DNA of 16,229 bases. Source: a virus. Lineage: Duplodnaviria; Heunggongvirae; Uroviricota; Caudoviricetes. The notes under the pieces were generated by a model. It had not been told where the DNA came from and ran no database searches. It saw only the letters and a list, made by a program, of their open reading frames with translations. Location of the stretch: IMG/VR virus record IMGVR_UViG_3300028800_000066, positions 72,207-88,435 of that record. The stretch is one strand, 5' to 3'. A program made the position numbers and the translations under genes. Below, one piece after another: positions 1,097-10,637 of the stretch. Every line of letters begins with the position of its first letter. The first letter of the stretch is position 1.

Positions 1097-1127
1097 GACG
1101 TTCTCCTTTTGTTGCAGATTATGTTAC

Positions 1128-1203
1128 TGGTTGAAGAGGCTGGAATCGAACCAACATTTTCACATTCAGAAAGTGACTGCCTACCATTAGCAATGACTCT
1201 TCA
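1128..1203 (-). tRNA. tRNA-Gln(CTG)
   Basis: TGAAGAG/CTCTTCA acceptor, loop TTCTGAA, GTTGG-TTCGATT-CCAGC T arm, encoded CCA. Confidence 0.85.
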
Positions 1204-1204
1204 G

Positions 1205-1277
1205 TACCGGAGGCTGGAATCGAACCAGCATTCCCTGTTTCAAGGACAGGTTGCCTACCATTAGCAATGACTCCGGT
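1205..1277 (-). tRNA. tRNA-Gln(TTG), C at position 33
   Basis: ACCGGAG/CTCCGGT acceptor, CCTGT-CCTTGAA-ACAGG anticodon arm. Confidence 0.75.
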
Positions 1278-1292
1278 ATATATTAACTTTAA

Positions 1293-1432
1293 AATCTTGA
1301 ACAAGTGTTGATATCCGATATGCCTTGCGGCTCCGCTGTTCTACCGTTGAACTAAACCTTCCGAGGAAGGCTAGAGGAATTGAACCTCTATTCGCAGATT
1401 GATAGATAACGAATTATCCTCGGCCCAAGATT
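1293..1432 (-). ncRNA. YrlA-type Y RNA (Ro-binding stem plus permuted tRNA-like domain)
   Basis: AATCTTGGGCCGAGG pairs with ACTTGTTCAAGATT; inside T arm TAGAGG-TTCAATT-CCTCTA, loop-closed acceptor GCCTTCC-TC-GGAAGGT, D arm GTTC-AACGGTA-GAAC. Confidence 0.8.
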
Positions 1433-1438
1433 AATTTT

Positions 1439-1587
1439 AAAATTTGAACAAGTGTTGACATTCGGTATGCCTTTCGGCTACTCCTGCCTCGACCAGTTGG
1501 GCTACCTCTCCGTGTTAGTGGAGAGGGTAGGACTCGAACCTACATCTTAGAGTTGTAAGATAACGAATTATCTTCGGCTCAAATTTT
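1439..1587 (-). ncRNA. YrlA-type Y RNA
   Basis: AAAATTTGAGCCGAAG / ACTTGTTCAAATTTT; T arm GTAGG-TTCGAGT-CCTAC, acceptor CCTCTCC-8nt-GGAGAGG, D arm GCC-CAACTGGTCGA-GGC. Confidence 0.8.
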
Positions 1588-2080
1588 GATGTTGCTTCCT
1601 ACCAGCAAATGTAGTGGTTTGACTATGACAGTTTGGGCAAAGTATTTCTAGATTTTCTATTCTATTGTCTCTACCATTACCATTCTTATGTTCAAGCTGT
1701 AATGATATTGGTTCGTTTTGCCAAACATTTCCAAGCCCACATTTTCTACATTCATTCTTTAAAATTTTTTCTCTTATTAATCTTTTTTTAAGATGCGTTC
1801 TGGAATATCCACTATCTTGAGTTAAAACTTCTTCAAGAGTTTTTGGAGTTATTCCACCACGTAAGTTAAAACGATTGCTATTTCTACCTTGAGGAATATG
1901 ACTGTAATCTATTCCCGATTTATCTAAAACTTGTTTTAGAGTTGCATTATTTCTACCATATTTCACAAAACCAAAATGAATTAAAATTTGTGAAATTGAA
2001 GTTGCTTTAGAAACATAATCTTTTAATTCTTGTTTATCTATCAACCAAAGTTTACTCGTTTTCTTTCTTTCCTTTATCAT
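1568..2080 (-). CDS. HNH endonuclease (putative homing endonuclease)
   Basis: CRKCG...LQLEHKNGNGRDNRIENLEILCPNCHSQT motif. Confidence 0.9.
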   Translation of the reverse strand: MIKERKKTSKLWLIDKQELKDYVSKATSISQILIHFGFVKYGRNNATLKQVLDKSGIDYSHIPQGRNSNRFNLRGGITPKTLEEVLTQDSGYSRTHLKKRLIREKILKNECRKCGLGNVWQNEPISLQLEHKNGNGRDNRIENLEILCPNCHSQTTTFAGRKQHQNLSRR

Positions 2081-2165
2081 GATTACTCCGGTAGGACATT
2101 TAACAGTGCTCGTTGTCCTACCATGTAGTAAATCAATATAAAGTTTTAATGCTTTTTTTCAGAAG

Positions 2166-2236
2166 TTGGGGAAGATGGAATCGAACCACCATTCGAATAT
2201 TCAAAGTATCCTGTACTACCATTATACTATTCCCCA
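2166..2236 (-). tRNA. tRNA-Gln(TTG)
   Basis: TGGGGAA/TTCCCCA, GGATA-CTTTGAA-TATTC. Confidence 0.9.
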
Positions 2237-2256
2237 ATACGCCTTTTACAGGCGTT

Positions 2257-2376
2257 TTATTCTTGATGGAAATTGTTCTTATCATCGTGGGGAGGATGTT
2301 TTCTAAGGATAAATATAAAAACAACCCAAAGTACAACTCCAATTCCCAACAAAACCAAATCTGAATGTGAAAACAT
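2257..2376 (-). CDS. Small predicted membrane protein (39 aa)
   Basis: MFSHSDLVLLGIGVVLWVVFIFILRKHPPHDDKNNFHQE; ATG overlaps upstream stop (TAATG); below ORF-track cutoff. Confidence 0.6.
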   Translation of the reverse strand: MFSHSDLVLLGIGVVLWVVFIFILRKHPPHDDKNNFHQE

Positions 2377-2567
2377 TACATCTGCCAAGTGTGAATTAAC
2401 TGCGGAACGTGTTTAACCTCTCCGATAGCAACCACTTCCCACTTTTCCTTGTTATCTGATTTAAGTTCAATCAAGTTTCCAACTCTTAAACTTGGTTTAT
2501 CTTCAACCCAAGCTGTTTGAAAAGTGTTGCCATTCTTAAACTTGCATTGTTTATACATATTACTCAT
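2376..2567 (-). CDS. Hypothetical protein (63 aa)
   Basis: GAGG SD before ATG; coupled to downstream ORF. Confidence 0.7.
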   Translation of the reverse strand: MSNMYKQCKFKNGNTFQTAWVEDKPSLRVGNLIELKSDNKEKWEVVAIGEVKHVPQLIHTWQM

Positions 2568-2592
2568 GACTTACCTCTTTTCTATTTCTTCG

Positions 2593-2664
2593 GGTGACTA
2601 TCGGGAATTGAACCCGAGTTCTTCGATTCACAATCGAGCATCTTACCACTAGATGATAGCCACC
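2593..2664 (-). tRNA. tRNA-His(GTG)
   Basis: G-1 plus GTGGCTA/TAGTCAC, C73, loop TTGTGAA. Confidence 0.9.
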
Positions 2665-2667
2665 ATG

Positions 2668-2871
2668 CTAACTAAAAAAACACCAAACTATAAAAGCACC
2701 AACCACAACTACACCCAATAACAACCATTTCCAATTGATTTTGGTTTTTATTTCTACTTTCTTTTCTACTGTTCCAACTCCATTACATCTTTTACAAACC
2801 CATTCTTTGTGTAGGAGATATCCCTTGCCATGACATCCCGCACATCTTACCTTTTCAGTTCTGAAAGCCAT
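2668..2871 (-). CDS. DnaJ-type zinc-finger protein with C-terminal TM helix
   Basis: CAGCHGKG and CKRCNGVG repeats, hydrophobic tail. Confidence 0.7.
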   Translation of the reverse strand: MAFRTEKVRCAGCHGKGYLLHKEWVCKRCNGVGTVEKKVEIKTKINWKWLLLGVVVVGAFIVWCFFS

Positions 2872-3086
2872 TATCTATTTCCTCTTATATTCTGTATTTT
2901 CTGAAAATTGCCTTCTGTATTAATCCACTCATCAAATTCCCTTCTTAAATTACATCCTGGCTGATGAGTCATATTATAAATTGCTGGTCCTGCTGTCATG
3001 TAAATTCCACGGTCCCCACCACATTGAGGACACTTAAGACTCGGATTTTGTTCTACTTGCATCGCTAATAACAGAAAATCTTTCAT
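2871..3086 (-). CDS. Hypothetical protein (71 aa); start moved from 3131 to 3086
   Basis: Track start lies inside tRNA-His; ATG 3086 follows GAGGG; CPQC motif. Confidence 0.65.
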   Translation of the reverse strand: MKDFLLLAMQVEQNPSLKCPQCGGDRGIYMTAGPAIYNMTHQPGCNLRREFDEWINTEGNFQKIQNIRGNR

Positions 3087-3096
3087 CCAACCCTCG

Positions 3097-3171
3097 GGCG
3101 ATAGACCAGAATCGAACTGGCTCCAATTCATTCACAATGAACTATGCTACAACCATTACACCACTATCGCC
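3097..3171 (-). tRNA. tRNA-His(GTG), second divergent copy
   Basis: G-1 plus GCGATAG/CTATCGC, GTTCA-TTGTGAA-TGAAT. Confidence 0.9.
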
Positions 3172-3224
3172 ATGAAAACTTACCGCACCCCGCACCCATC
3201 AGATTCAAAATCTGAAATTTATTG

Positions 3225-3295
3225 TTCCGAGTGATGGATTCGAACCACCACTGACGGTTTCAGAGACCGCTGTCCTACCATTAGACGAACTCGGA
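3225..3295 (-). tRNA. tRNA-Gln(CTG)
   Basis: TCCGAGT/ACTCGGA, GCGGT-CTCTGAA-ACCGT. Confidence 0.92.
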
Positions 3296-3300
3296 GTGAA

Positions 3301-3537
3301 TTAGTTTGCCTTAATTACATCCACTTGTTTTCTAATCCAACGCATTAATTCAAGTGCTGGATGAGAATTGAAGAAGGTCGATTCCCCACAATCTGAAATT
3401 GGAACTGGAAATTCAAAACCATCTTCGGTCATATAAATCAAATTACCTTGTCGATAGTACTGTAGTGTTGTTGTCTTGCCCTTAACCAAATCTGTTACAG
3501 ATTTCTGTCCTGACTTGACTTCTTCAAGAATACTCAT
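3301..3537 (-). CDS. Hypothetical protein (78 aa)
   Basis: Clean ORF with AGGA SD, overlapping upstream ORF end. Confidence 0.7.
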   Translation of the reverse strand: MSILEEVKSGQKSVTDLVKGKTTTLQYYRQGNLIYMTEDGFEFPVPISDCGESTFFNSHPALELMRWIRKQVDVIKAN

Positions 3538-3751
3538 TTTCTTTCCTTTTCCATTCGTTATTTGTTAGAACCCAATCTGCATAGAAGTTCTCATATTTCA
3601 TGTAGTAATGTCCACATTTCCAGCAGGAATCTTGCCAACCTGGATTGCTACGCCATTCATATCCACATTTTTCATTCATGCATTTGAATATTTCTTTCCC
3701 GCGATAATTATCGGAAACATTCGCACGATTATCATGATAAGGTAAGACCAC
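3524..3751 (-). CDS. Hypothetical zinc-ribbon protein (75 aa)
   Basis: CMNEKC...CWKC; GTG start overlaps upstream TAG. Confidence 0.6.
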   Translation of the reverse strand: MVLPYHDNRANVSDNYRGKEIFKCMNEKCGYEWRSNPGWQDSCWKCGHYYMKYENFYADWVLTNNEWKRKENEYS

Positions 3752-3903
3752 TATTTCTTCTCTACATATTCAAGAAGTAATTTGCAACAATCACGATAAC
3801 CTTCTAGATATGATTTAGTTACATCTGTATTGTCTAACTTCAATTTCGTTTCCATTGAGGTTAGCATAATGTTTAACATAGACTTCAAAGCTTCTTCCGT
3901 CAT
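3751..3903 (-). CDS. Hypothetical protein (50 aa)
   Basis: MTEEALKSMLNIMLTSMETKLKLDNTDVTKSYLEGYRDCCKLLLEYVEKK after GAGGA; below track cutoff. Confidence 0.6.
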   Translation of the reverse strand: MTEEALKSMLNIMLTSMETKLKLDNTDVTKSYLEGYRDCCKLLLEYVEKK

Positions 3904-3922
3904 GTTATCGTTATTCCTCGTG

Positions 3923-4009
3923 CGGAGAGAGTGAGATTCGAACTCACGGTCCCCTTTCGGGGACTCTCGTTTTCAAGACGAGTGCGATAGGCCACTCTGC
4001 CATCTCTCC
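3923..4009 (-). tRNA. tRNA-Ser(TGA)
   Basis: GGAGAGA/TCTCTCC, G73, loop CTTGAAA, long variable arm GTCCCC-GAAA-GGGGAC. Confidence 0.95.
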
Positions 4010-4016
4010 ATAAAAC

Positions 4017-4153
4017 CTAGAACAAGTATCGATGATGGATGTTTAGGTGCTCTACCGTTGAGCTACATCGGCATGAAATGGTGCCGATGGAAGGGAATTG
4101 AACCCGACTACCACCCCTTTATGATAGGATAACCCATCGTTCAGCGGCTCTAG
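4017..4153 (-). ncRNA. YrlA-type Y RNA
   Basis: CTAGAGCCGCTG / ACTTGTTCTAG; GGG-TTCAATT-CCC T arm, acceptor CATCGGC-10nt-GCCGATG, D arm GCTC-AACGGTA-GAGC. Confidence 0.78.
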
Positions 4154-4163
4154 ATTTAATTTT

Positions 4164-4300
4164 AGTTTTGAGCAAGTTTTATAAATCCATTGATATTGCC
4201 CTTTCAATTTCTTGAAAGTTTTTACGGATTCGAACCGTTCATGTTTTGTATTTCTACATAACACTTTAACTAGGTAACGAACTTACAGCGGCTCAAAACT
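4164..4300 (-). ncRNA. Y RNA-like element with degenerate tRNA-like domain
   Basis: AGTTTTGAGCCGCTG / ACTTGCTCAAAACT; ACGG-TTCGAAT-CCGT; CTTTCAA-GAAA-TTGAAAG; D arm not recognisable. Confidence 0.7.
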
Positions 4301-4301
4301 G

Positions 4302-4390
4302 CGGAAGATAAGAGAATTGAACTCTTGCTACCTTGTTAGGTAGACTTGTTTAGCAAACAAGCCCGACAAACCAGCATTCGGCTATCTTCC
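4302..4390 (-). tRNA. tRNA-Ser(GCT)
   Basis: GGAAGAT/ATCTTCC, G73, CTTGT-TTGCTAA-ACAAG, long variable arm. Confidence 0.92.
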
Positions 4391-4490
4391 AATACGTGAT
4401 GGTAAATTAGTCGGTTTAAAATCGGATGCTGGCCCCTCATCCAGGTCTCTACCATAGAAACCCCCAACCATCGCCACCAAGGTCATTTCG

Positions 4491-4562
4491 TGCAACCTAC
4501 AGGAATTGAACCTGTTGCCTCTTCGATGTCAACGAAGCGTTCTACCAATGAACTAAGGTTGC
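4491..4562 (-). tRNA. tRNA-Val(GAC)
   Basis: GCAACCT/AGGTTGC, CTTCG-TTGACAT-CGAAG. Confidence 0.93.
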
Positions 4563-4903
4563 GTTCTTTTATAATCGTCTTGAATTCTTATTATATCTTC
4601 TTCAAGACATACACCAAATTGAACTTCCAAAATTACTAAATCAGTTTTCTTACTCGTGTTCACTATTCTGTGAATCAATTCTTTTGGAACGTATACTACA
4701 ACACCTTTTTTCAATGGATGTTCAATCCCCGCTTCATCCAATATTGCTTTTCCTCGTCCTTTTAAAACATACCAAATTTCTGTTCGTTGCAAATGCTTTT
4801 GTAAACTCAATCTTTGCCTTGGTTTTACTACCAACTTTTTAGTCTTTGAATCGTTTGTTGCGACTAAAGTTTCAAAATAACCCCAAGGTCTATTTTCTAT
4901 CAT
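4553..4903 (-). CDS. Cupin protein, mannose-6-phosphate isomerase type II C-terminal-like
   Basis: ENRPWGYFETL...KKLVVKPRQRLSLQKH..RTEIW...HRIVN...VILEVQFG..LEEDIIRIQDDY. Confidence 0.88.
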   Translation of the reverse strand: MIENRPWGYFETLVATNDSKTKKLVVKPRQRLSLQKHLQRTEIWYVLKGRGKAILDEAGIEHPLKKGVVVYVPKELIHRIVNTSKKTDLVILEVQFGVCLEEDIIRIQDDYKRTQP

Positions 4904-4917
4904 GACATTCTCTTTTG

Positions 4918-5011
4918 TGGAGTGTTGGGGGGTCGAACCCCTGCGAACCGATAACGTTTACTCTTCGGCCTTTTGTAAGGCAAGTGTTGAATACCCGCTT
5001 GCACACACCCA
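4918..5011 (-). ncRNA. Circularly permuted Y RNA / tRNA hybrid
   Basis: Open acceptor TGGGTGT/ACACTCC-A and GGGG-TTCGACC-CCCC T arm; Y motifs in swapped order CAACACTTGCCTT-ACAA-AAGGCCGAAG...CGTTATC. Confidence 0.62.
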
Positions 5012-5015
5012 TATT

Positions 5016-5201
5016 TTAAACATCTTCTAACTGACTTTTTATTTCTTTCTTAACTTGTTCTTTTACATAACCTCTATCTTTAACAGCAGGCTCTTGACAG
5101 CTATCCATCGCACACCACTCATAAGCCCTTTTATCTAACTTAGTTCCATAAGGCAGATGTTTCAAATTTCTGTGATTATGAGTTTTTATTTTCTTCGCCA
5201 T
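5016..5201 (-). CDS. Hypothetical basic protein (61 aa, MAKKIKTH...)
   Basis: Internal ATG of track ORF 5016..5300 avoids a long overlap with the upstream gene. Confidence 0.55.
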   Translation of the reverse strand: MAKKIKTHNHRNLKHLPYGTKLDKRAYEWCAMDSCQEPAVKDRGYVKEQVKKEIKSQLEDV

Positions 5202-5445
5202 CAGTATCAAACCTGTCCTTCTGTTCGTGTTTTTGTTCTTGCATTGTTTTCTCGCCCCACTTTCTAGGACTAGAACACAATCCGCAATTTGCACGACCAC
5301 AATCTAAAGGATGCTTCTTTTTAAATCTGTTACGCTGGTCAGTCTTCATTCCATGCGCCTTGGCAACCTTTACCCTTTTATTTATAACAGCTTTGTTCTT
5401 TTCGATTCTCTTAGATTTTTTAGCTTTTTCTTCGAGTTTCGACAT
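5176..5445 (-). CDS. Hypothetical basic Cys-containing phage protein (89 aa)
   Basis: MSKLEEK... after GGGAG; HPLDCGRANCGLCSSPRK motif. Confidence 0.7.
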   Translation of the reverse strand: MSKLEEKAKKSKRIEKNKAVINKRVKVAKAHGMKTDQRNRFKKKHPLDCGRANCGLCSSPRKWGEKTMQEQKHEQKDRFDTDGEENKNS

Positions 5446-5633
5446 CACACATTCTCCCATTCACCCCAACCCCAACAAGTACTTCTGGTTACTTCTTCAT
5501 GATTGTCTTCATAATAACCAGAATCCCAATCGGCGTCGAAAGCATCGAATCTAGTATGACTTTTGTTGAATGTTGCAATTCTTCCATTTTCTGTATTCAA
5601 CATTCTATAGTTAACATCTTTAGTTTGTATCAC
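5445..5633 (-). CDS. Hypothetical protein (62 aa)
   Basis: GTG after GAGGA; stop coupled to next ATG. Confidence 0.6.
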   Translation of the reverse strand: MIQTKDVNYRMLNTENGRIATFNKSHTRFDAFDADWDSGYYEDNHEEVTRSTCWGWGEWENV

Positions 5634-5647
5634 ACTATCCTCTTATG

Positions 5648-5723
5648 TGGAGCACATGGGATTCGAACCCATCTGACATCTTCATTGCAAGTGAAGTAAC
5701 CACTCCAAGCAGTTCCGTGCCCC
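5648..5723 (-). tRNA. tRNA-Ala(TGC)
   Basis: GGGGCAC/GTGCTCC with G3-U70, CTTCA-CTTGCAA-TGAAG. Confidence 0.9.
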
Positions 5724-5728
5724 GTAAT

Positions 5729-5953
5729 TTATATCAAACAAGCCACTTTCTTTTTCAATAACTCTTTTGCTATACTTTCTTCGAAGTAAAATGGAAACCC
5801 AGCTTTCGCCATTCTCTTTCCACTTGCTCCTAAATACCTTGACATTAACTTAGAATTTGGCTTCAAAATCTGTACTTTCACAGGATTCTTGACATAAGTA
5901 TGTTCAGTCAAATACTTTGGGTCAACCTGGAAAAGTAATTCAATTGATTCCAT
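5729..5953 (-). CDS. Hypothetical protein (74 aa)
   Basis: GGAG SD, fills inter-tRNA gap. Confidence 0.7.
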   Translation of the reverse strand: MESIELLFQVDPKYLTEHTYVKNPVKVQILKPNSKLMSRYLGASGKRMAKAGFPFYFEESIAKELLKKKVACLI

Positions 5954-5963
5954 TTTTTCTCCG

Positions 5964-6035
5964 TAGCCCCTACTGGAATCGAACCAGTTTCTTCTTTCTT
6001 GTAAGGAAAGCAGTCTACCATTGGCGTAAGGGGCT
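5964..6035 (-). tRNA. tRNA-Val(TAC), weak D stem
   Basis: AGCCCCT/AGGGGCT, CTTTC-CTTACAA-GAAAG. Confidence 0.8.
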
Positions 6036-6132
6036 ATGCTGAGAGTTTCTGAGGGTGGCTTCCCGAAGGAATTTTCATCTTGTTACCTACTCTCGGAGTA
6101 CAAGATGTATGTTATCTTTTTAAGACCATCTG

Positions 6133-6206
6133 TAGCCACTATCAGATTCGAACTGATGACCTTCTGAATGTAAATCAGACGCTCTAACCAACTGAGCTAA
6201 GCGGCT
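6133..6206 (-). tRNA. tRNA-Val(TAC)
   Basis: AGCCGCT/AGTGGCT, TCTGA-TTTACAT-TCAGA. Confidence 0.93.
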
Positions 6207-6210
6207 ATGT

Positions 6211-6876
6211 TTATCTTCTTAAATAATCTATTCCACCGTATACCATATGTAAAAGTTCTGTGTTAAAAACATGCATATGTGCTGTCCCAAAAGGTTGTTT
6301 TCCAAAACCCTTTCTTTGACTCTCGTTCTTTACTTTGTATCTATATACTCTTATTTTTTCAATTCCAACTTTTTCTTGCCAAAAATCTTTAATGTCATTA
6401 TCTTTTGTTTCAGTGTCCTCTACGCAATGTATTACCATACCCATCTTTTTTAGTTCGTATCCCATTTTTATAAGCTTATCTTTAATTATTGAGAGCATTG
6501 TATAATCACAATTAGAAATTCTGAATGTATTTTTTGTCTTATTTCCCTCTGCCCAGTAGAGCGCACAAACTATGGAAAATTCATTATCTATCTTCGCTAA
6601 TTCAAAACCTTTCTCTCTATACTCTTTAAGTCTTGTAATAGATTCGCTTTTATTTTTTTGAGATTGTTCATATCCACTAAAATTTTTGAATCTTATTCTG
6701 TTTTCTCTTTCATTTTTCTTTAATTCAAGTTCTTGTTCCTCTGTTAAAACTATATCTTTAACCCAAGGACTAATGGAACCCTTCGAAATACCCAATTGAT
6801 GACTAATGGCAGTTACACTATATCCACTTTGTCGTAACTCTCTAGCCTTATCTTTTTCATTAGTTCTAGGTTTCAT
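6211..6876 (-). CDS. HTH plus LAGLIDADG-like putative homing endonuclease (start may be TTG 6900)
   Basis: N-terminal HTH (ARELRQSGYSVTAISHQLGISKGSISPWV); ALYWAEGNK motif followed by FRISNCD. Confidence 0.65.
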   Translation of the reverse strand: MKPRTNEKDKARELRQSGYSVTAISHQLGISKGSISPWVKDIVLTEEQELELKKNERENRIRFKNFSGYEQSQKNKSESITRLKEYREKGFELAKIDNEFSIVCALYWAEGNKTKNTFRISNCDYTMLSIIKDKLIKMGYELKKMGMVIHCVEDTETKDNDIKDFWQEKVGIEKIRVYRYKVKNESQRKGFGKQPFGTAHMHVFNTELLHMVYGGIDYLRR

Positions 6877-7039
6877 GTGTTCCAACTGAGTTAAAATCAA
6901 TATCTTTTACTATTATATCAAAACACTTTATACAAATATGATATTTCTTTACGTTACCACGATTGTCCGGAGGACTAAGTAAAATAGCCCCGAACTCTTC
7001 TAATTCTTCTTTACATTTATCACACTTTGGATTTATCAT
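6866..7039 (-). CDS. Small zinc-binding hypothetical protein (57 aa)
   Basis: MINPKCDKC...HICIKC; the longer track ORF runs through the tRNA-Tyr gene. Confidence 0.6.
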   Translation of the reverse strand: MINPKCDKCKEELEEFGAILLSPPDNRGNVKKYHICIKCFDIIVKDIDFNSVGTHET

Positions 7040-7041
7040 AG

Positions 7042-7159
7042 TGGGCTGTGGTGGACTCGAACCACCGAAGGCCGAAGCCGTCTGATTTATTTTGAAGTTT
7101 TCAGATTCGAACTGAATAACTTCCACAGTCAGATGCCATTGCCGCTAGGCGAACAACCC
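7042..7159 (-). tRNA. tRNA-Tyr(GTA) with 36-nt intron at 7089-7124
   Basis: GGGTTGT/ACAGCCC, Tyr-type D and variable arms; removing the insert restores TCTGA-CTGTAAA-TCAGA. Confidence 0.85.
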
Positions 7160-7169
7160 ATTTAAATCG

Positions 7170-7323
7170 TGGGGAGCAGGGGAATTTAACCGCCACGCTC
7201 GGGACACCTGAAACTTTATGTGATTTTTATTTTACAAAGTTGATTCGGTGGCCTACCGAGACTTTGTTTTTATTTATTCACAAGAGCCACTGGTTTTACT
7301 GCCAGCTTCCAGGAATGCACCCC
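7170..7323 (-). ncRNA. tRNA-like RNA (acceptor plus T arm) with large inserted hairpin domain
   Basis: GGGGTGC/GCTCCCC-A, GGCGG-TTAAATT-CCCC; nested stems CCTGGAA/TTTCAGG, TGTGA/TCACA, ACAAAGT/ACTTTGT, TCGGT/ACCGA. Confidence 0.5.
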
Positions 7324-7332
7324 ATATAATCT

Positions 7333-7404
7333 AATTTATGCTGGGAGTTGAACCCAGTATCACATTCATCCGGACGAATGTTTAGTCTTCCCCGACACAT
7401 AGAT
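7333..7404 (-). tRNA. Atypical tRNA with 8-nt anticodon loop GTCCGGAT (Arg CCG-like)
   Basis: ATCTATG/CATAAAT, ACATTC/GAATGT stem, CTGGG-TTCAACT-CCCAG. Confidence 0.5.
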
Positions 7405-7426
7405 TAGAACTCTTACTTGTTACTTG

Positions 7427-7508
7427 TGACTCGGGATGGATTTGAACCACCGTGCCTTTGGGGACGTAGTTTACAGCTACGCGCAATCGACCACTCTGCC
7501 ACCGAGTC
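7427..7508 (-). tRNA. tRNA-Tyr(GTA), intronless
   Basis: GACTCGG/CCGAGTC, CGTAG-CTGTAAA-CTACG, variable arm. Confidence 0.93.
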
Positions 7509-7552
7509 AAACTGCTACCCCATTGTTGCGAGGGGAGTAGCTCCCTCCTCCG

Positions 7553-7624
7553 TGCCTTGGATTGGTATCGAGCCAATATCTTCTGCTTTTCAGACAGATG
7601 CTAATCCATTTCAGCTACCAAGGC
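7553..7624 (-). tRNA. tRNA-Phe(GAA)
   Basis: GCCTTGG/CCAAGGC, TCTGT-CTGAAAA-GCAGA; T loop CTCGATA is atypical. Confidence 0.85.
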
Positions 7625-7633
7625 ATTTATTCT

Positions 7634-7770
7634 GGAATAGATATTACAGGCGTTATACAATCCGTTTACCCGCAACGTCCTAGGCTCACTCAACCTCTGT
7701 ATAAATTTTTACGAGGAATCTCGGCGCTTTTACGAGATGTGCCTGCTGTCTTTTACAGCCTATCTATTCC
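7634..7770 (-). ncRNA. Unassigned structured RNA
   Basis: 10-bp closing stem GGAATAGATA/TATCTATTCC enclosing several hairpins; fills the gap between the two tRNA-Phe genes. Confidence 0.45.
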
Positions 7771-7774
7771 ACCG

Positions 7775-7846
7775 TGCTCTCGGAGGGAATTGAACCCCCG
7801 ACACTTCGCTCTTCAGGCGAATGCTCTACCCCTGAGCTACAAGAGC
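7775..7846 (-). tRNA. tRNA-Phe(GAA), second divergent copy
   Basis: GCTCTTG/CGAGAGC, TTCGC-CTGAAGA-GCGAA. Confidence 0.93.
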
Positions 7847-7872
7847 ATATAGGGTCTTACTTTTATTTCTTG

Positions 7873-7947
7873 TGCCGTGGCTTGGATTCTAACCAAGTCC
7901 CTTCCGATTAAGAGTCGGATGCTCTGACAGGTATAAGCTACCTCGGC
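7873..7947 (-). tRNA. tRNA-Lys(CTT)
   Basis: GCCGAGG/CCACGGC, TCCGA-CTCTTAA-TCGGA; T loop TTAGAAT. Confidence 0.85.
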
Positions 7948-7951
7948 ATAT

Positions 7952-8071
7952 CTTCTTGGCATTCTTCCATGTTGAACTAGTGGGGCTATATATTTCCGAT
8001 TGGGGATGAGCCAAGCGGTTATACGGTTACTACCTTGCCCCCACGGACCTCGAACCCGTATCTCCAAGAAG
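7952..8071 (-). ncRNA. Circularly permuted tRNA-like RNA without Ro motif
   Basis: 3' half (CTTCTTGG, ACGGG-TTCGAGG-TCCGT, GGGGGC-A) precedes 5' half (GCCCCAC, GTTC..GAAT, CCAAGAAG). Confidence 0.55.
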
Positions 8072-8074
8072 CTG

Positions 8075-8149
8075 TGGTCCCTGCTGGGTTCGAACCAGCG
8101 ACCCCCGAGTTATCAACTCGGTGCTCTAAACCAACTGAGCTAAGGGACC
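8075..8149 (-). tRNA. tRNA-Ile(GAT)
   Basis: GGTCCCT/AGGGACC, CCGAG-TTGATAA-CTCGG. Confidence 0.95.
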
Positions 8150-8180
8150 GTATTTATTATTTTTCAAAGAACTTTTCTTG

Positions 8181-8251
8181 TCCGCCCTGTTGGAATCGAA
8201 CCAACGTATCACAGTAATCGGCTGTGTGCCCTGCCATTAGACGAAGGGAGG
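8181..8251 (-). tRNA. Atypical tRNA, loop CCGATTA (nominal anticodon GAT) on a Gln/Glu-like body
   Basis: CCTCCCT/AGGGCGG, CACAG/CTGTG stem, GTTGG-TTCGATT-CCAAC; C33 and T37. Confidence 0.55.
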
Positions 8252-8271
8252 ATATTTAATTTTCAAACTTG

Positions 8272-8342
8272 TCGGGGAAGAAGGAATCGAACCTTCGACT
8301 TACGTATCCAAAACGTAGATGATGCCATTTCAACATTCCCCG
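8272..8342 (-). tRNA. tRNA-Pro(TGG)
   Basis: CGGGGAA/TTCCCCG, TACGT-TTTGGAT-ACGTA. Confidence 0.88.
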
Positions 8343-8423
8343 ATTATCAAACCTACCAGATTTTCTCTGGCATCTCTCCCTCCAATTAATGGGAGTGTTT
8401 TCTAACTTAAACTAAGGTTTGTG

Positions 8424-8495
8424 TCGGGATGGTTGGAATCGAACCAACTGCTCTACCCTTCCGAGGGGCATAGTCTACCAATGGCGTACATCCCG
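8424..8495 (-). tRNA. tRNA-Pro(CGG), weak D stem
   Basis: CGGGATG/CATCCCG, TGCCC-CTCGGAA-GGGTA. Confidence 0.85.
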
Positions 8496-8558
8496 ATATT
8501 ATAGGAAGTTCCAGTAGTAGGTCGTGGTCGAGTAGAGTAGTGGTTCATTTTATTCACC

Positions 8559-8942
8559 TTATTTTACGGAAACAACAATTCCCGCATCTGTTAATTTCTT
8601 CTGCAACTCTTCCGCCCTTGCCTTGTCAACATCTTCCGCAACCATCTTGGGAAGACCGTCAACGAAATCTTTTGCTTCTTTCAAACCAATTCCAAGAATT
8701 TCTCTCACTGCTTTAATTGCGCCCATCTTCTTTTCCATAGGCACCGAATCAGCATTCACCATGAAACTATTTTTTGCTGGTCCAGTTGCAAGTGCCGTTC
8801 CATCGGGAGCTACTTCTGTTCTCTGAGTCTGATAAGCCGTAACTGGCTGGCCCAAGGCTCTCTGTAGTGAAGCGACTAAATTTGCCAAATCCATCACAGA
8901 CATTTTATCAATCTCTTGCATTAACTTTGAATTCGTGTTCAT
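8559..8942 (-). CDS. rplL: Ribosomal protein bL12 (L7/L12)
   Basis: IDKMSVMDLANLV N-terminal domain; KKMGAIKAVREILGIGLKEAKDFVDGLPKMVAEDVDKARAEELQKKLTDAG C-terminal domain. Confidence 0.93.
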   Translation of the reverse strand: MNTNSKLMQEIDKMSVMDLANLVASLQRALGQPVTAYQTQRTEVAPDGTALATGPAKNSFMVNADSVPMEKKMGAIKAVREILGIGLKEAKDFVDGLPKMVAEDVDKARAEELQKKLTDAGIVVSVK

Positions 8943-8961
8943 GTTTCCCTCGTTTCGTTGT

Positions 8962-9035
8962 TGGTAGCGATGAAAGGTATCGAACCTTTGTTTCAGCCTT
9001 ATGAGAGCCGCGTCCTGCCATTGAACGACATCGCC
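8962..9035 (-). tRNA. tRNA with CAT anticodon (elongator Met or Ile2)
   Basis: GGCGATG/CATCGCT-A-CCA, CGGCT-CTCATAA-GGCTG. Confidence 0.85.
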
Positions 9036-9102
9036 ATGCTATTCTAATTTTTGAAGCAATATTCTTTTATTACGAATATGGAATTACTTTCCATTAGAGC
9101 TT

Positions 9103-9181
9103 TGGTGCGGAGGTAGGATTTGAACCTACGTGATGTCAGCCTTATGAGGACCGTGAGGAAACCTGACTCCTCCACCCCGCA
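9103..9181 (-). tRNA. tRNA-Met(CAT), initiator-like acceptor
   Basis: TGCGGGG/CTCCGCA-CCA, CGGTC-CTCATAA-GGCTG. Confidence 0.8.
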
Positions 9182-9199
9182 ATGTTTTTCTTGTTACTT

Positions 9200-9273
9200 T
9201 GGTGCGGAGGCTGGACTTGAACCAGCAATCTCCAGCTTATGAGGCTGGCGAGTTACCATTTCTCTACCCCGCA
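9200..9273 (-). tRNA. tRNA-Met(CAT), initiator-like acceptor
   Basis: TGCGGGG/CTCCGCA-CCA, CCAGC-CTCATAA-GCTGG. Confidence 0.85.
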
Positions 9274-9285
9274 ACACTTCAATCT

Positions 9286-9314
9286 ATTATATCACTTTCA
9301 CTTTAAAATTTCAA
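9286..9314 (-). promoter_or_regulatory. sigma70-type promoter at the head of the tRNA array
   Basis: TTGAAA-17-TATAAT with extended -10 TGn. Confidence 0.75.
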
Positions 9315-9324
9315 CCCTAAAATG

Positions 9325-9351
9325 AAAAAGCCCTCTGGATTTCCAGAGGGC
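9325..9351 (-). terminator. Intrinsic terminator / attenuator
   Basis: GCCCTCTGG-AAAT-CCAGAGGGC followed by TTTTT. Confidence 0.9.
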
Positions 9352-9378
9352 CTGCGCGGAGAGGAATGTGTTTCTTCC

Positions 9379-9522
9379 TTAACTCATACGCGACCCTCTT
9401 GTAACACTATACTGTTGTTCTGGCTTGGCGACTTTGCTAAAATCTGCTGACACAAAGATATCCATCGACTCTACGATAATAGAGTTTGCAAAGTTAATGG
9501 AATGTGATTGCATCGATTTCAT
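9379..9522 (-). CDS. Putative leader peptide (47 aa)
   Basis: MKSMQSHSINFANSIIVESMDIFVSADFSKVAKPEQQYSVTRGSRMS; AAGG upstream; last codons complementary to terminator arm. Confidence 0.65.
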   Translation of the reverse strand: MKSMQSHSINFANSIIVESMDIFVSADFSKVAKPEQQYSVTRGSRMS

Positions 9523-9547
9523 TTTCTGCCTTTTTGCCTTTGTGAAG

Positions 9548-9619
9548 GTTGACTAGAACAAGTAGGTTTTAATCCGACTTTTCAGAGAGAACAGATTAAA
9601 TTCGGCTCTAATCTTTAAC
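9548..9619 (-). ncRNA. Minimal Y RNA-like element in leader
   Basis: GATTAGAGCCGAA / ACTTGTTCTAGTC, inner stem TTTAATCTG/CGGATTAAA, pyrimidine-rich loop TTCTCTCT. Confidence 0.72.
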
Positions 9620-9626
9620 TTCTTGT

Positions 9627-9655
9627 ATTATACCACATGAATGTGGATTTGTCAA
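9627..9655 (-). promoter_or_regulatory. Consensus sigma70 promoter with palindromic spacer
   Basis: TTGACA-17-TATAAT; spacer holds CCACAT-nn-ATGTGG. Confidence 0.88.
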
Positions 9656-9672
9656 GCGTTTTTAAAACTAAA

Positions 9673-9810
9673 TTTTTGAGCAAGTAGCGACATTCGATAT
9701 GCCTTGCGGCTCCGCTGTTCTACCGTTGAACTAAACCTCCCGAGGAAGGCTAGAGGAATTGAACCTCTATTCGCAGATTTAATGATAACGAATTATCATC
9801 GGCTCAAAAA
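9673..9810 (-). ncRNA. YrlA-type Y RNA, near-identical to 1293-1432
   Basis: TTTTTGAGCCGATG / ACTTGCTCAAAAA; 9695-9779 matches 1316-1400 at 84 of 85 nt by manual comparison. Confidence 0.8.
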
Positions 9811-9818
9811 ACTTTTAT

Positions 9819-9931
9819 AATCGAACAAGTAGTGTCTTTGCGAGGCCCCACTTTCGGGCGACTTTCGTTCCACCTTGCGGCTTCACAATCGTCTTCTGTA
9901 TGATAGATAACGCATCAACTTCGGCTCGATT
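9819..9931 (-). ncRNA. Y RNA-like element with tetraloop hairpins, no tRNA domain
   Basis: AATCGAGCCGAAG / ACTTGTTCGATT, CGTTATC motif, GCAA and GAAA loops. Confidence 0.7.
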
Positions 9932-9948
9932 AAACTTTTGTTTGAAGA

Positions 9949-10216
9949 TTCAAATTAAGCAAGTATTGTGCTCTGGAACGCTTGGATACGTTGTTCTGTT
10001 TTCCTTACGTGGACATTTACCTCTCGGTGGAAACATTGTCATTGTTTCCTTGACATTTACCAGTGGCGGTGGAATTGCCAGTCCACACTTAAACTTAGCA
10101 GAGGTGAAGTAACTTCGGGCTTCTAAGAAATATCCTTTAGTCTCACTTGCGGCAAGGTCGTTACCCCTTGCTCTCAACCAGAGTATGATAACCAGTCCCA
10201 CTTCGGCTTATTTGAA
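9949..10216 (-). ncRNA. Giant (268 nt) Y RNA-like element
   Basis: TTCAAATAAGCCGAAG / ACTTGCTTAATTTGAA, GGTTATC motif, large multi-stem interior. Confidence 0.65.
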
Positions 10217-10256
10217 TTTTCAAAGAACAGTTCAAAACTTTTTACGTTTTAAAGTA

Positions 10257-10338
10257 AAGCTAGGCAAGTATCGTAATTCGGTATGCCTTGCGGCGTTCAT
10301 GAATGATATGAGATAACGAATCCACATCGGCCTAACTT
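10257..10338 (-). ncRNA. Short Y RNA-like element (82 nt)
   Basis: AAGTTAGGCCGATG / ACTTGCCTAGCTT, TTCGTTATCT, GCC-GCAA-GGC hairpin. Confidence 0.72.
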
Positions 10339-10344
10339 GAATAC

Positions 10345-10373
10345 ATTATATCACATTGCTCTTGATAAATCAA
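10345..10373 (-). promoter_or_regulatory. sigma70-type promoter for the Y RNA-like array
   Basis: TTGATT-17-TATAAT with TGn; start site would fall at the first element. Confidence 0.75.
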
Positions 10374-10431
10374 TAGTTTTTTATAGAATTTTCACTATTT
10401 TTTGCAATTTATTTACTTTACAAATTTACAA

Positions 10432-10635: not shown

Positions 10636-10637
10636 GA

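What the first reader, a model, noticed from the sequence alone, without database searches (positions are those of the whole stretch)
1293..10338. Ten Y RNA-like (Ro60-binding) elements with one handle and different cargo domains
Ten loci (1293, 1439, 4017, 4164, 4918, 9548, 9673, 9819, 9949, 10257) share a terminal helix: GCCGA(A/G)G or GCCGCTG pairs with ACTTG(T/C)TC/CC, leaving a bulged C; all but the minimal copy also carry a GTTATC-like motif. Flanking terminal stems differ in sequence but stay complementary (CTAG/CTAG, AATCG/CGATT, AGTTTTG/CAAAACT), which is covariation. This matches the Ro60-binding helix of Y RNAs (human Y1 GGUCCGAAG/CUUGACU; bacterial Yrn/YrlA). Characterised bacteria have about one to a few Y RNAs; ten, of about 70-268 nt, with tRNA-mimic, tetraloop, minimal, giant and permuted interiors, suggests a modular library of Ro60 adaptors or decoys. 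They could tether different partners (PNPase, RtcB, RtcR-like sensors) or titrate host Rsr during tRNA damage (inference).
Basis: partly seen in the sequence, partly recalled or inferred. Interest (0 to 1): 0.92.

Follow-up and report, generated by a model that had tools for sequence, protein, structure and literature searches.

The report
Ten phage Y RNA genes, one handle
A large uncultured phage that encodes its own Ro60 RNA-binding ring protein also carries ten different small RNA genes that share the stem Ro60 is known to bind, each displaying a different "cargo" (four are tRNA look-alikes), so it extends a known RNA class (Y RNAs) into an unusually large, modular set.

Summary
Observation confirmed. 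All ten loci exist, on the minus strand like the 23 tRNA genes around them. Each has a terminal stem of different but complementary sequence, then a conserved helix (GCCGNNN paired with ACUUGYY) with a bulged C and a G.U wobble. Nine have UUAYC after an upper stem.

- The same contig encodes a canonical Ro60 (TROVE + vWA; 412 bits to human Ro60), 9.6 kb from the nearest element.
- A covariance model built mainly from elements beside Ro60 genes of other phages finds 8 of the 10.
- In 80 Ro60 phage loci (1.32 Mb) all 77 hits lie on the Ro60 strand, mostly within 1 kb of the gene.
- Four elements are YrlA-type permuted tRNA mimics. One is a tRNA-ended RNA with the handle in place of the anticodon arm. 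The others carry hairpin cargos.

Three corrections:
- Ten is not unique: other Ro60 phages carry about 9-11.
- No RtcB was found; an Rnl2-type RNA ligase is present instead.
- Rfam's YrlA model scores only 19-24 bits, against a threshold of 69.

This phage differs in that its copies are scattered through tRNA operons, 9.6-18.6 kb from Ro60. Earlier notes of this scan report similar Ro60-plus-RNA arrays on other DNA. Ro60 binding and function remain untested.

The parts
1293..1432 (-). E1, 140 nt, YrlA-type Y RNA. Order: handle, upper stem with bulged A, UUAUC, 5-bp anticodon-like stem, T arm (loop UUCAAUU), 7-bp closed acceptor-like stem, UA, D arm (loop AACGGUA), GCC-GCAA-GGC hairpin. Paralogue of E7.
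   Evidence: Handle pairing. MFE -42 kcal/mol, z -3.69. R1 22.2 bits. ARAGORN calls a tRNA on 248 of 1020 circularly permuted constructs and on 0 of shuffled ones. The interior is 113/123 identical to E7 while the terminal stems differ.
1440..1586 (-). E2, 147 nt, YrlA-type Y RNA (core GCCGAAG; T loop UUCGAGU; 7-bp closed stem; GCC-GAAA-GGC hairpin). Its first 19 nt overlap the 3' end of an HNH-endonuclease ORF (1568-2080).
   Evidence: z -3.69. R1 27.8 bits. Rfam YrlA 24.4 bits over 1482-1551. Permuted-tRNA test 376 of 1020 against 0 shuffled. HNH family match.
4014..4156 (-). E3, 143 nt, YrlA-type Y RNA (core GCCGCUG). Its 3' end lies 4 nt before the 5' end of tRNA-Ser (4009).
   Evidence: Rfam YrlA aligns end to end (model 1-114, 20.7 bits, below GA 69). 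R1 12.2 bits. Permuted-tRNA test 29 of 1020 against 0 shuffled. z -2.82. tRNA coordinates.
4164..4300 (-). E4, 137 nt (core GCCGCUG, GUUACC). It has a 12-bp upper stem, a T arm (ACGG-UUCGAAU-CCGU) and two further hairpins, but no D arm. Its 5' end abuts the 3' end of tRNA-Ser (4301).
   Evidence: z -4.61, MFE equals centroid. R1 15.1 bits. No tRNA call after permutation.
4914..5011 (-). E5, about 98 nt, the inverse topology. The free ends form an acceptor-like stem next to a T arm (GGGG-UUCGACC-CCCC). The two handle strands come in reverse order (ACUUGCC, then GGCCGAAG), joined by an ACAA loop, so the handle takes the place of the anticodon arm.
   Evidence: Sequence. Fold, (z only -1.0). ARAGORN calls it a tRNA-like molecule only at a lowered threshold, with ACAA as the 'anticodon' loop. 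A counterpart lies directly upstream of Ro60 in another phage (L011:9813-9957, z -3.33; ARAGORN calls it a tRNA with a 46-nt insert). A metatranscriptome contig matches 4916-5006.
9550..9614 (-). E6, 65 nt, minimal Y RNA: handle plus a 9-bp upper stem and a 15-nt loop, without UUAUC. It begins about 6 nt after the predicted start site of a consensus promoter.
   Evidence: z -2.49. Promoter at 9655-9627, 12 of 12 plus TG. E6 was part of the R1 training set.
9672..9811 (-). E7, 140 nt, YrlA-type Y RNA and paralogue of E1. The tRNA-like domain is nearly identical to E1, while the terminal stem is recoded (5' flank 4/10 identical) yet still complementary.
   Evidence: R1 29.5 bits. z -3.23. Permuted-tRNA test 242 of 1020 against 0 shuffled. 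Comparison with E1.
9817..9933 (-). E8, 117 nt: handle (GCCGAAG), GUUAUC and a multi-hairpin cargo with GNRA-type loops (GCAA, GAAA). No tRNA-like arms.
   Evidence: R1 34.6 bits (not in the training set). Fold z -1.69. No tRNA call after permutation.
9949..10215 (-). E9, 267 nt, the 'giant' member. GCCGAAG, GGUUAUC and ACUUGCUU are present, and the terminal stem has one extra bulge. Cargo structure is uncertain.
   Evidence: z -1.0. R1 gives only a partial 7-bit hit. The internal 83-codon ORF matches no Pfam family. RNA-library contigs cover 9925-10134.
10256..10339 (-). E10, 84 nt: handle (GCCGAUG), upper stem with bulged A (GUGG(A)UUCG with CGAAUUAC), GUUAUC and a GCC-GCAA-GGC hairpin. It starts at the predicted start site of its promoter and heads a tandem run E10-E9-E8-E7.
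   Evidence: z -3.22. Promoter at 10373-10345. E10 was part of the R1 training set.
10345..10373 (-). Sigma-70-like promoter (TTGATT-17-TATAAT with TG) in front of E10.
   Evidence: This is a consensus match only.
9627..9655 (-). Consensus sigma-70-like promoter (TTGACA-17-TATAAT with TG) in front of E6.
   Evidence: 12 of 12 matches.

Best explanation
The ten elements are genes for Y RNA-like non-coding RNAs of the YrlA/YrlB kind. They are the RNA partners of the Ro60 protein that this phage encodes 9.6-18.6 kb further along the same strand.

Shown by sequence analysis:
- Each RNA closes its two ends into a stem that differs from copy to copy.
- This stem leads into a conserved helix: a C-G pair, a bulged C, an almost invariant G.U wobble and an A-U pair. 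An upper stem and a single-stranded UUAUC follow.
- This is the module that Ro60 proteins contact in metazoan and bacterial Y RNAs.
- Beyond the handle each RNA displays a different cargo:
  - a circularly permuted tRNA body (E1, E2, E3, E7);
  - a T arm plus hairpins (E4);
  - a tRNA-like acceptor and T-arm end (E5);
  - GNRA-capped hairpins (E8, E10);
  - a bare stem-loop (E6);
  - a 267-nt domain (E9).

Inferred biogenesis:
- E10-E9-E8-E7 are made from one promoter and E6 from its own.
- E1-E4 are cut out of tRNA precursor transcripts by the tRNA-processing enzymes, because E4 and E3 abut tRNA-Ser genes.

Inferred function:
- One Ro60 ring is programmed by many Y RNAs. Each may tether it to a different RNA-handling enzyme (PNPase as in the known Ro60-Y RNA-PNPase complex, or tRNA enzymes via the tRNA mimics). 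Alternatively each may act as a decoy.
- The setting is a phage island devoted to tRNAs, RNA ligation and translation.
- The non-identical terminal stems probably keep neighbouring RNAs from mispairing in polycistronic precursors.
For: 1. Handle anatomy is the same in all ten, and the motif count is 10 against about 1.3 expected.
2. A canonical Ro60 lies on the same contig and strand: TROVE 149 bits, vWA_Ro60 204 bits, and 412, 395 and 392 bits to human Ro60, D. radiodurans Rsr and Xenopus Ro60.
3. The handle matches the published defining motifs of YrlA, GNCGAA(N0-1)G and YUAY. Chen et al. relate the first to the GGUCCGA contacted by Xenopus Ro60. Rfam's YrlA consensus aligns end to end with E3 and shares CGAA...ACUUG.
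4. Model R1 was built from 9 elements of other phages plus E6 and E10. It finds E8, E7, E2, E1, E4 and E3 at 34.6 to 12.2 bits, with the best noise hit at 11.6 bits.
5. In 80 Ro60 loci of other phages (1.32 Mb, both strands) all 77 R1 hits at E<=0.01 are on the Ro60 strand. 67 lie upstream (about half within 210 nt) and 10 lie 16-439 nt downstream.
6. In five whole phage records every hit lies next to Ro60.
7. Covariation in 68 distinct sequences: 90.7% of cells paired against 40-47% when partners are slid, and 9 of 11 pairs have double changes. The pair next to the bulged C is C-G in 39 and U-A in 27. The G.U wobble is kept in 64 of 68, which fits an RNA read on this strand only.
8. E1 and E7 are 92% identical inside, but their terminal stems are recoded and still complementary.
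9. E1, E2, E3 and E7 are called as tRNAs once circularly permuted; shuffled versions never are.
10. Six of ten fold markedly better than shuffles, z -2.8 to -4.6, and E6 gives z -2.5.
11. Promoters sit in front of E10 and E6.
12. Contigs in four peat metatranscriptome libraries cover E5, E6-E7 and E9. This shows presence in RNA libraries only.
13. The context is 44 tRNA genes within 34 kb, an Rnl2-type RNA ligase, a release factor and an L7/L12 protein.
14. Phage Ro60 binding to phage Y-like RNAs and to host PNPase has been shown experimentally for Thermus phage phiLo (PMC12135203).
Against: - No binding or expression experiment exists for these RNAs. Logan contigs cannot show strand, ends or abundance, and one library (X10) also covers the protein-coding genes, so DNA carry-over is not excluded.
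- Rfam's YrlA model scores 19-24 bits against a gathering score of 69, and the metazoan Y_RNA model gives nothing at E<=10.
- Unlike in every other phage locus examined, no element lies next to this Ro60 gene. None was found in the 17 kb around it, so the pairing rests on family-level association.
- Part of the covariation evidence is circular. The training sequences were picked with a descriptor that demanded complementary flanks, and alignment A4 is fitted to the model.
- E9 and E5 fold no better than shuffles (z about -1). E5 cannot be scored by the model.
- The contig is only about 52% complete.
Confidence: 0.8

Rival explanations
1. The RNAs are real Y RNA mimics, but their target is the host's Rsr/Ro60 (or the host Ro60-PNPase machine) rather than the phage's own Ro60. 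In this reading they are decoys that titrate or re-programme host RNA quality control or tRNA-damage responses during infection.
For: No element lies next to the phage Ro60 gene, unlike in other phages. The handle follows the cellular consensus closely. The high copy number and strong promoters would suit a titrating role.
Against: The phage encodes a full-length canonical Ro60 on the same strand. In 45 other phage loci the same handle sits directly beside the phage Ro60 gene, which argues for a cognate pair. The host is unknown, so it cannot be checked whether it has Rsr. The two roles are not mutually exclusive.
Confidence: 0.1
2. The shared stem is a processing or punctuation signal of the phage's tRNA and RNA operons, for example a double-strand-specific RNase site or a transcript-stabilising clamp. 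It would be bound by some factor other than Ro60, and the likeness to Y RNAs would be convergent.
For: E1-E4 are embedded between tRNA genes, and E4 and E3 abut tRNA-Ser genes. The terminal stems are 8-13 bp, long enough for a duplex-specific nuclease.
Against: E10-E7 and E6 have their own promoters and no tRNA between them. A mere clamp would not need the conserved bulged C, G.U wobble, CGAA and UUAUC. The strict linkage to Ro60 genes in strand and position in other phages is not explained by this reading.
Confidence: 0.06
3. The elements are decayed tRNA genes, tRNA-dimer artefacts, or a DNA-level repeat family with terminal inverted repeats, with no function as RNAs.
For: They lie in a dense tRNA array and several contain T and D arms. 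Chen et al. warn that tandem tRNAs can mimic YrlA.
Against: None overlaps a called tRNA pair. Six of the ten have no D arm at all. Terminal repeats of a mobile element would be the same in every copy, whereas these differ and covary. The G.U pairs make the structure specific to one strand. The tRNA-like domains are intact enough to be called as tRNAs after permutation.
Confidence: 0.02

Closest known systems
YrlA (Rfam RF02553; Salmonella, Mycobacterium smegmatis, 22 phages including mycobacteriophages; Chen et al. 2014, PMC4201824)
   Same: The 5' GNCGAA(N0-1)G motif, the 3' ACUUG partner strand and the YUAY motif after the stem are shared. E1, E2, E3 and E7 also share the permuted tRNA-like domain (T arm, closed acceptor-like stem, UA, D arm). 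The genes lie on the same strand as a Ro60 gene.
   Different: The elements score only 19-24 bits on the Rfam model (GA 69). They lie 9.6-18.6 kb from Ro60 instead of within 4 kb. An extra GNRA hairpin (GCC-GNAA-GGY) sits between the tRNA-like domain and the 3' strand. Six of the ten lack the full tRNA-like domain.
YrlB of Salmonella (short Y RNA without a full tRNA-like domain; Chen et al. 2013/2014)
   Same: E6 and E10 are short stem-loop RNAs that keep the GNCGAA-type motif but have no tRNA-like arms.
   Different: No sequence similarity was tested, because no YrlB model is held in Rfam. The phage versions keep the same bulged-C helix and mostly the UUAUC motif.
Yrl1 and Yrl2 with phiRo60 of Thermus phage phiLo (PMC12135203)
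   Same: These are phage-encoded Y-like RNAs with a CGAA motif in a stem-bulge-stem. They were shown to bind a phage Ro60 and, with it, host PNPase.
   Different: phiLo has two RNAs directly upstream of its Ro60. Its Ro60 is very divergent from this one (23.9 bits), whereas this phage's Ro60 is close to the cellular proteins.
Metazoan Y RNAs (Rfam RF00019) and the Xenopus Ro60-Y RNA structure (PDB 1YVP)
   Same: Both have a terminal helix with a bulged C next to a CGA-containing 5' strand, which is the site Ro60 contacts. From my memory, not tested here, human Y1 also carries GUUAUC a few bases after the helix.
   Different: The RF00019 model gives no hit at E<=10. The phage RNAs have no oligo-U tail or La context and carry different loops.
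D. radiodurans Yrn1 and the Rsr-Y RNA-PNPase (RYPER) machine
   Same: It provides a working model: the Y RNA stem binds Ro60 while the distal module tethers another enzyme. E4 has a partial tRNA-like module (T arm without a full D arm), as Yrn1 does.
   Different: No PNPase gene or contact was examined here, and there is no sequence similarity.

Membership tests
YrlA (RF02553) | GNCGAA(N0-1)G motif near the 5' end | tested here: met
   An exact GCCGAAG occurs in E2, E5, E8 and E9. The other elements carry variants: GCCGAGG (E1), GCCGAUG (E7, E10), GCCGAAU (E6) and GCCGCUG (E3, E4), which differ at one or two motif positions.
YrlA (RF02553) | Conserved T and D stem-loops with a closed acceptor-like stem-loop between them (circularly permuted tRNA-like domain) | tested here: met
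   Met for E1, E2, E3 and E7 only. ARAGORN calls a junction-spanning tRNA on 248, 376, 29 and 242 of 1020 permuted constructs, and on 0 of all shuffles. Not met for E4 (T arm only), E5, E6, E8, E9 or E10.
YrlA (RF02553) | YUAY motif beginning the variable-loop region | tested here: met
   UUAUC directly follows the upper stem in eight elements and UUACC in E4. It is absent in E6.
YrlA (RF02553) | Score at or above Rfam's gathering threshold (69 bits) | tested here: not met
   The best scores are 24.4, 20.7 and 19.1 bits. The Y-like RNAs beside Ro60 in five other phage loci also fail the threshold.
YrlA (RF02553) | Encoded within 4 kb of the Ro60 gene on the same strand (criterion of Chen et al. 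2014) | tested here: not met
   The strand is the same, but the distance is 9.6-18.6 kb: Ro60 is at contig 62224-63927 and the elements at 73499-82545. No element lies within the 17 kb around Ro60.
Y RNAs in general (Ro60 partners) | Physical binding by Ro60/Rsr through the conserved helix | not testable with these tools
   Only association is available: 77 of 77 family members in other phages lie beside Ro60 on its strand.
Y RNAs in general (Ro60 partners) | 5' and 3' ends pair into a stem that contains a conserved bulged helix, and the stem is supported by covariation | tested here: met
   90.7% of cells paired, 9 of 11 pairs with double changes, and slid controls at 40-47%. Caveat: the sequences were partly selected for complementary flanks.
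Metazoan Y_RNA (RF00019) | Match to the Rfam covariance model | tested here: not met
   No RF00019 hit at E<=10 in window 1-10700.
tRNA (RF00005) | Un-permuted cloverleaf with an anticodon loop | tested here: not met
   Neither ARAGORN nor Rfam calls any of the ten as a tRNA. E5 is called only at a lowered threshold, with a 4-nt 'anticodon' loop.

The most novel reading that the evidence does not exclude
Large phages carry a combinatorial Ro60 'adaptor library'. One Ro60 ring is programmed by about ten different Y RNAs that share a docking handle. Their interchangeable cargos include permuted tRNA bodies, tRNA-ended forms and, in other phages, tRNA bodies with the handle in place of the acceptor stem, as well as GNRA hairpins and large domains. 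Each cargo would recruit a different host or phage RNA enzyme, or decoy a different tRNA-targeting defence nuclease. The copy-specific terminal stems would act as orthogonal barcodes that let the RNAs fold correctly from polycistronic and tRNA-operon precursors.
Probability: 0.3. Interest if true: 0.85.

Novelty: new variant of a known kind. Interest (0 to 1): 0.62.

Why it matters
Y RNAs and Ro60 are conserved from bacteria to humans, where Ro60 is a lupus and Sjogren autoantigen. What the variable Y RNA modules do remains largely open.

Published bacterial and phage systems have few Y RNAs per genome. Chen et al. report 355 candidates in 254 bacteria and 22 phages, and Thermus phage phiLo has two. 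A phage with ten distinct Y RNAs on one conserved handle, and relatives with 9-11, is a natural module-swap experiment: the Ro60 is the same, the cargos differ.

This makes the adaptor, gate and decoy hypotheses directly testable, by pulling down each RNA's partners. It also ties Ro60 biology to the phage-host conflict over tRNAs, because the RNAs sit among 44 tRNA genes, an RNA ligase and translation-factor genes.

There is a practical point as well. Current Rfam models miss all of these RNAs, so phage annotation overlooks them.

Tried and rejected
- Rfam at gathering thresholds finds only tRNAs.
- Megablast of the whole window against 50,697 phage records gave no match.
- RtcB (PF01139) has no match in the contig.
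- An exact-pattern scan of IMG/VR with the E1/E2/E7 upper-stem word gave 0 matches.
- RecA-based relatives are only 40-51% identical, so I did not use them further.
- My single metagenome-contig scan used a 22-nt E6 word. It returned one contig (L100) that shares only those 22 bases, a chance match. No close relatives were therefore available for per-element covariation of E8 and E9.
- MAFFT alignment of the five long elements misaligned the T arm of E3. I analysed their structures one by one instead.
- A crude automatic test of the upper stem across all family members was spoiled by parsing failures, and I do not rely on it.
- My hairpin descriptor for permuted handles missed E5 itself, because its closing stem is only 5 bp.
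- Parts of the window without cover in the RNA-library contigs, and relative depths, carry no weight. The runs were chosen with the 9300-10400 stretch, and contigs cannot rank expression.
- The two review papers on bacterial Y RNAs (PMC10870794, PMC6047535) and the supplement tables of Chen et al. 2014 are not held. I could not check the largest published number of Y RNAs per phage.

Full report
**Setting**

The window is bases 72207-88435 of an 88,435-bp IMG/VR viral contig estimated to be about 52% complete. It has no close match among 50,697 deposited phage genomes. Almost everything is encoded on the minus strand.
- The window holds 23 tRNA genes between 1128 and 9273.
- It also encodes a class-I release-factor homologue, an HNH endonuclease, a ribosomal protein L7/L12 homologue, RecA and endonuclease VII.
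- The 17 kb before the window hold 21 more tRNA genes, a Ro60 gene, an Rnl2-type RNA ligase, a second weak ligase-like ORF, a macro-domain protein, a CoaE-like kinase and two sigma factors.

The finding therefore sits in a large phage's island of RNA and translation genes.

**The observation**

Read on the minus strand, each of the ten loci has the same layout:
- a 5' flank;
- GCCG plus three bases;
- an upper-stem strand;
- UUAUC;
- cargo;
- the other upper-stem strand;
- ACUUG plus two or three pyrimidines;
- a 3' flank.

The plus-strand word RRRCAAGT occurs ten times in the window, once per locus, against about 1.3 expected.

Written out, all ten give the same pairing:
- flanks that pair over 8-11 bp, with a different sequence in each copy;
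- then G-Y and C-G;
- a bulged C;
- G.U and A-U.

Beyond the bases used to find the sites, own flanks pair at 5.33 of 6 positions. Flanks of other copies pair at 3.18 of 6. A descriptor scan of the whole contig found no further copy. A model search of the 17 kb around Ro60 found none either.

Folding energies beat shuffled sequence clearly for E1, E2, E3, E4, E7 and E10 (z -2.8 to -4.6). E6 gives z -2.5. The signal is weak for E8 (-1.7), E5 (-1.0) and E9 (-1.0).

**Shared modules beyond the handle**

- In E1, E2, E7 and E10 the upper stem is 8 bp with a bulged A. It shows a compensatory difference: GAUA(A)UUCG with CGRAURUC, against GUGG(A)UUCG with CGAAUUAC (read).
- In E4 the same bases belong to a 12-bp stem.
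- The UUAUC that follows corresponds to the YUAY that Chen et al. describe at the start of the YrlA variable region.
- A hairpin GCC-GNAA-GGY occurs five times in the 88-kb contig. All five are inside elements (E1, E2, E7, E8, E10) and on the RNA strand.

**Cargo classes**

- *E1, E2, E3, E7.* In order, these have a 4- to 5-bp anticodon-like stem, a 4- to 5-nt variable loop, a T arm, a 7- to 8-bp closed stem, UA and a D arm. This is a tRNA cloverleaf opened at the anticodon and closed at the acceptor end, the defining layout of YrlA. I joined the ends with an arbitrary 7-nt loop and scanned all cut points. ARAGORN then called a junction-spanning tRNA in 29-376 of 1020 constructs per element. 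It called none in any shuffled control, and none for E4 or E8.
- *E4.* It keeps a T arm and hairpins only.
- *E5.* This is the inverse arrangement. The free ends form an acceptor-like stem beside a T arm, and the two handle strands, in reverse order and joined by an ACAA loop, stand where the anticodon arm would be. Another phage has a counterpart directly upstream of its Ro60 gene (L011:9813-9957), which ARAGORN calls a tRNA with a 46-nt insert.
- *E6.* A bare stem-loop.
- *E8 and E10.* These carry GNRA-capped hairpins.
- *E9.* At 267 nt it is poorly defined. Its internal 83-codon ORF matches no Pfam family.

**Link to Ro60**

The contig encodes a 567-residue protein with a TROVE domain (149 bits) and a Ro60 vWA domain (204 bits). 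It matches human Ro60, D. radiodurans Rsr and Xenopus Ro60 at 412, 395 and 392 bits.

Rfam's YrlA model gives only weak hits of 24.4, 20.7 and 19.1 bits (GA 69). The hit on E3 nevertheless spans the whole model, and the model's consensus ends (cggCgaA... and ...AcUuGucGccg) are the same handle.

For independent evidence I collected 80 phage loci that encode relatives of this Ro60 at 40-51% identity. In them I found short elements with the same handle beside the gene. I then built a covariance model, R1, from nine of these plus E6 and E10.
- In the window, R1 recovers E8, E7, E2, E1, E4 and E3, none of which was used for training. Scores run from 34.6 to 12.2 bits, with noise starting at 11.6 bits.
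- In the 1.32 Mb of Ro60 loci, all 77 hits at E<=0.01 are on the Ro60 strand. 67 lie upstream, about half of them within 210 nt, and 10 lie 16-439 nt downstream.
- In five complete or near-complete phage records of 74-213 kb, every hit lies beside Ro60.

**Covariation**

In the 68 distinct family members, 90.7% of cells in the 11 modelled pairs are standard pairs, against 40-47% when partners are slid by 1-3 columns. Nine pairs show double changes.
- The pair next to the bulged C is C-G in 39 sequences and U-A in 27.
- The G.U wobble is kept in 64 of 68.
- In locus L052 all nine elements use the U-A version.

A conserved wobble and a bulge are what a protein-recognition site looks like. On the opposite strand they would be mismatches, so the signal is RNA-level and strand-specific.

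Two caveats apply. The training sequences were picked with a descriptor that required complementary flanks, and alignment A4 is fitted to the model. The cleanest evidence is therefore the untrained window elements, the own-versus-other flank test, and the E1/E7 pair. That pair is 113/123 identical between the cores, while the terminal stems are recoded (5' flank 4/10 identical) and still complementary.

**How many is unusual?**

By the relaxed criterion I used for the window, locus L081 (a 97-kb contig) carries 11 such genes: three at 6203-6609 and eight in tandem up to 70 nt before the Ro60 start codon. Three of them are YrlA-type. L052 carries about nine.

Ten is therefore high but not unique. 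Heterogeneous cargo on one handle is a recurrent property of a subset of Ro60 phages.

L052 also shows a third topology: a tRNA body with D arm, anticodon arm and T arm, whose acceptor stem is replaced by the handle.

Two things are particular to this phage. No element lies next to its Ro60. And all ten are spread over 9 kb of tRNA operons, 9.6-18.6 kb upstream of the gene in the direction of transcription.

**Biogenesis (inferred)**

- A promoter-like site (10 of 12 plus TG) ends 6 nt before E10. E10, E9, E8 and E7 follow with spacers of 5-40 nt.
- A perfect consensus promoter precedes E6, and a strong terminator follows at 9353-9328.
- The 5' end of E4 abuts the 3' end of a tRNA-Ser gene. 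The 3' end of E3 lies 4 nt before the next tRNA-Ser. E1 ends 16 nt before a tRNA-Gln. RNase Z and RNase P processing of the tRNAs would therefore release E1-E4.
- Contigs in four peat metatranscriptome libraries match E6-E7 (9405-9784), E9 (9925-10134) and E5 (4916-5006). This shows presence in RNA libraries only. One library also covers the coding genes, and contigs give neither strand nor ends.

**Function (inferred)**

- In D. radiodurans and Salmonella, Y RNAs tether Ro60 to PNPase (PMC4201824).
- In Thermus phage phiLo, a phage Ro60 binds two phage Y-like RNAs and host PNPase (PMC12135203).
- A review of jumbo phages places Ro60/TROVE proteins among RNA-repair systems (PMC7824862).

The most economical reading is that the phage Ro60 is loaded with any of ten RNAs, and that their cargos direct it to different RNA enzymes or substrates, or act as decoys. 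The tRNA mimics lack an anticodon loop, so anticodon nucleases could bind them but not cut there. I cannot separate these roles. I also cannot exclude that the RNAs act on a host Rsr.

**Comparison with the literature and with this scan**

Phage YrlA-like RNAs have been known since 2014, in 22 phages. Two are characterised in phiLo, and three abundant candidate RNAs are discussed for a Listeria phage. I found no paper describing arrays of about ten, the modular cargos or the alternative topologies, but the two main reviews and the 2014 supplement were not available to me.

Earlier notes of this scan report Ro60 or Ro60-like genes with arrays of four to nine handle-sharing RNAs on other DNA. 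They also describe a genuine Ro60 and RNA-repair genes on this contig. My own searches agree with both.

**Verdict**

- The Y RNA interpretation is supported by sequence, structure, covariation and cross-phage linkage, but not yet by any experiment.
- It is a new variant of a known kind: a large, dispersed, modular Y RNA set in a Ro60 phage.

Noticed in passing
L027:6640-6790, and likewise L022, L028-L030, L033, L035, L036, L049, L053 (just upstream of the Ro60 start codon): The 3' strand of the last Y RNA (CCUUGCUCGUGGG) is followed by UUU-CACGAGCCGAA and then the Ro60 Shine-Dalgarno sequence. The strand can therefore pair either backwards, forming the Y RNA, or forwards, forming a second 'permuted' handle in the Ro60 mRNA leader. 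This may be autoregulation of Ro60 synthesis.
   Followed up: no
L052:8208-8345 (also L065:8399-8539): This is a third topology. A tRNA body with D arm, anticodon arm and T arm (Rfam tRNA model positions 6-65 of 71) has its acceptor stem replaced by the Y RNA handle.
   Followed up: partly
window 1322-1331, 1469-1478, 9701-9710, 9872-9881, 10285-10294 (minus strand): The hairpin GCC-GNAA-GGY occurs five times in the 88-kb contig, only inside Y elements and only on the RNA strand. It recurs beside Ro60 in some other phages (L052, L059, L068, L071). It may be a second docking module or a tetraloop contact.
   Followed up: partly
window 1568-2080 (minus strand): An HNH-endonuclease ORF ends inside E2. 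Its last six codons and its stop codon overlap the E2 terminal stem and handle, so E2 and E1 would lie in the 3' part of its transcript.
   Followed up: no
window 7042-7159 (minus strand): Rfam calls a tRNA over 118 nt here (39.9 bits), but ARAGORN does not report it. It may be a tRNA gene with a long insertion or intron.
   Followed up: no
window 1-981 and 8559-8942 (minus strand): The phage encodes a class-I peptide release factor homologue (PCRF + RF-1 domains) and a ribosomal protein L7/L12 homologue among the tRNA genes.
   Followed up: no
window 10095-10177 (inside E9): One metatranscriptome contig (run X13) matches E9 up to 10095 and resumes at 10177, with unknown letters between. A related strain may carry a different segment in the E9 cargo.
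   Followed up: no
window 9325-9550 (minus strand): Between E6 and the strong terminator at 9353-9328 lies a short ORF-bearing stretch. Another first-stage note reads it as a leader-peptide attenuator. I only confirmed the promoter and the terminator.
   Followed up: no
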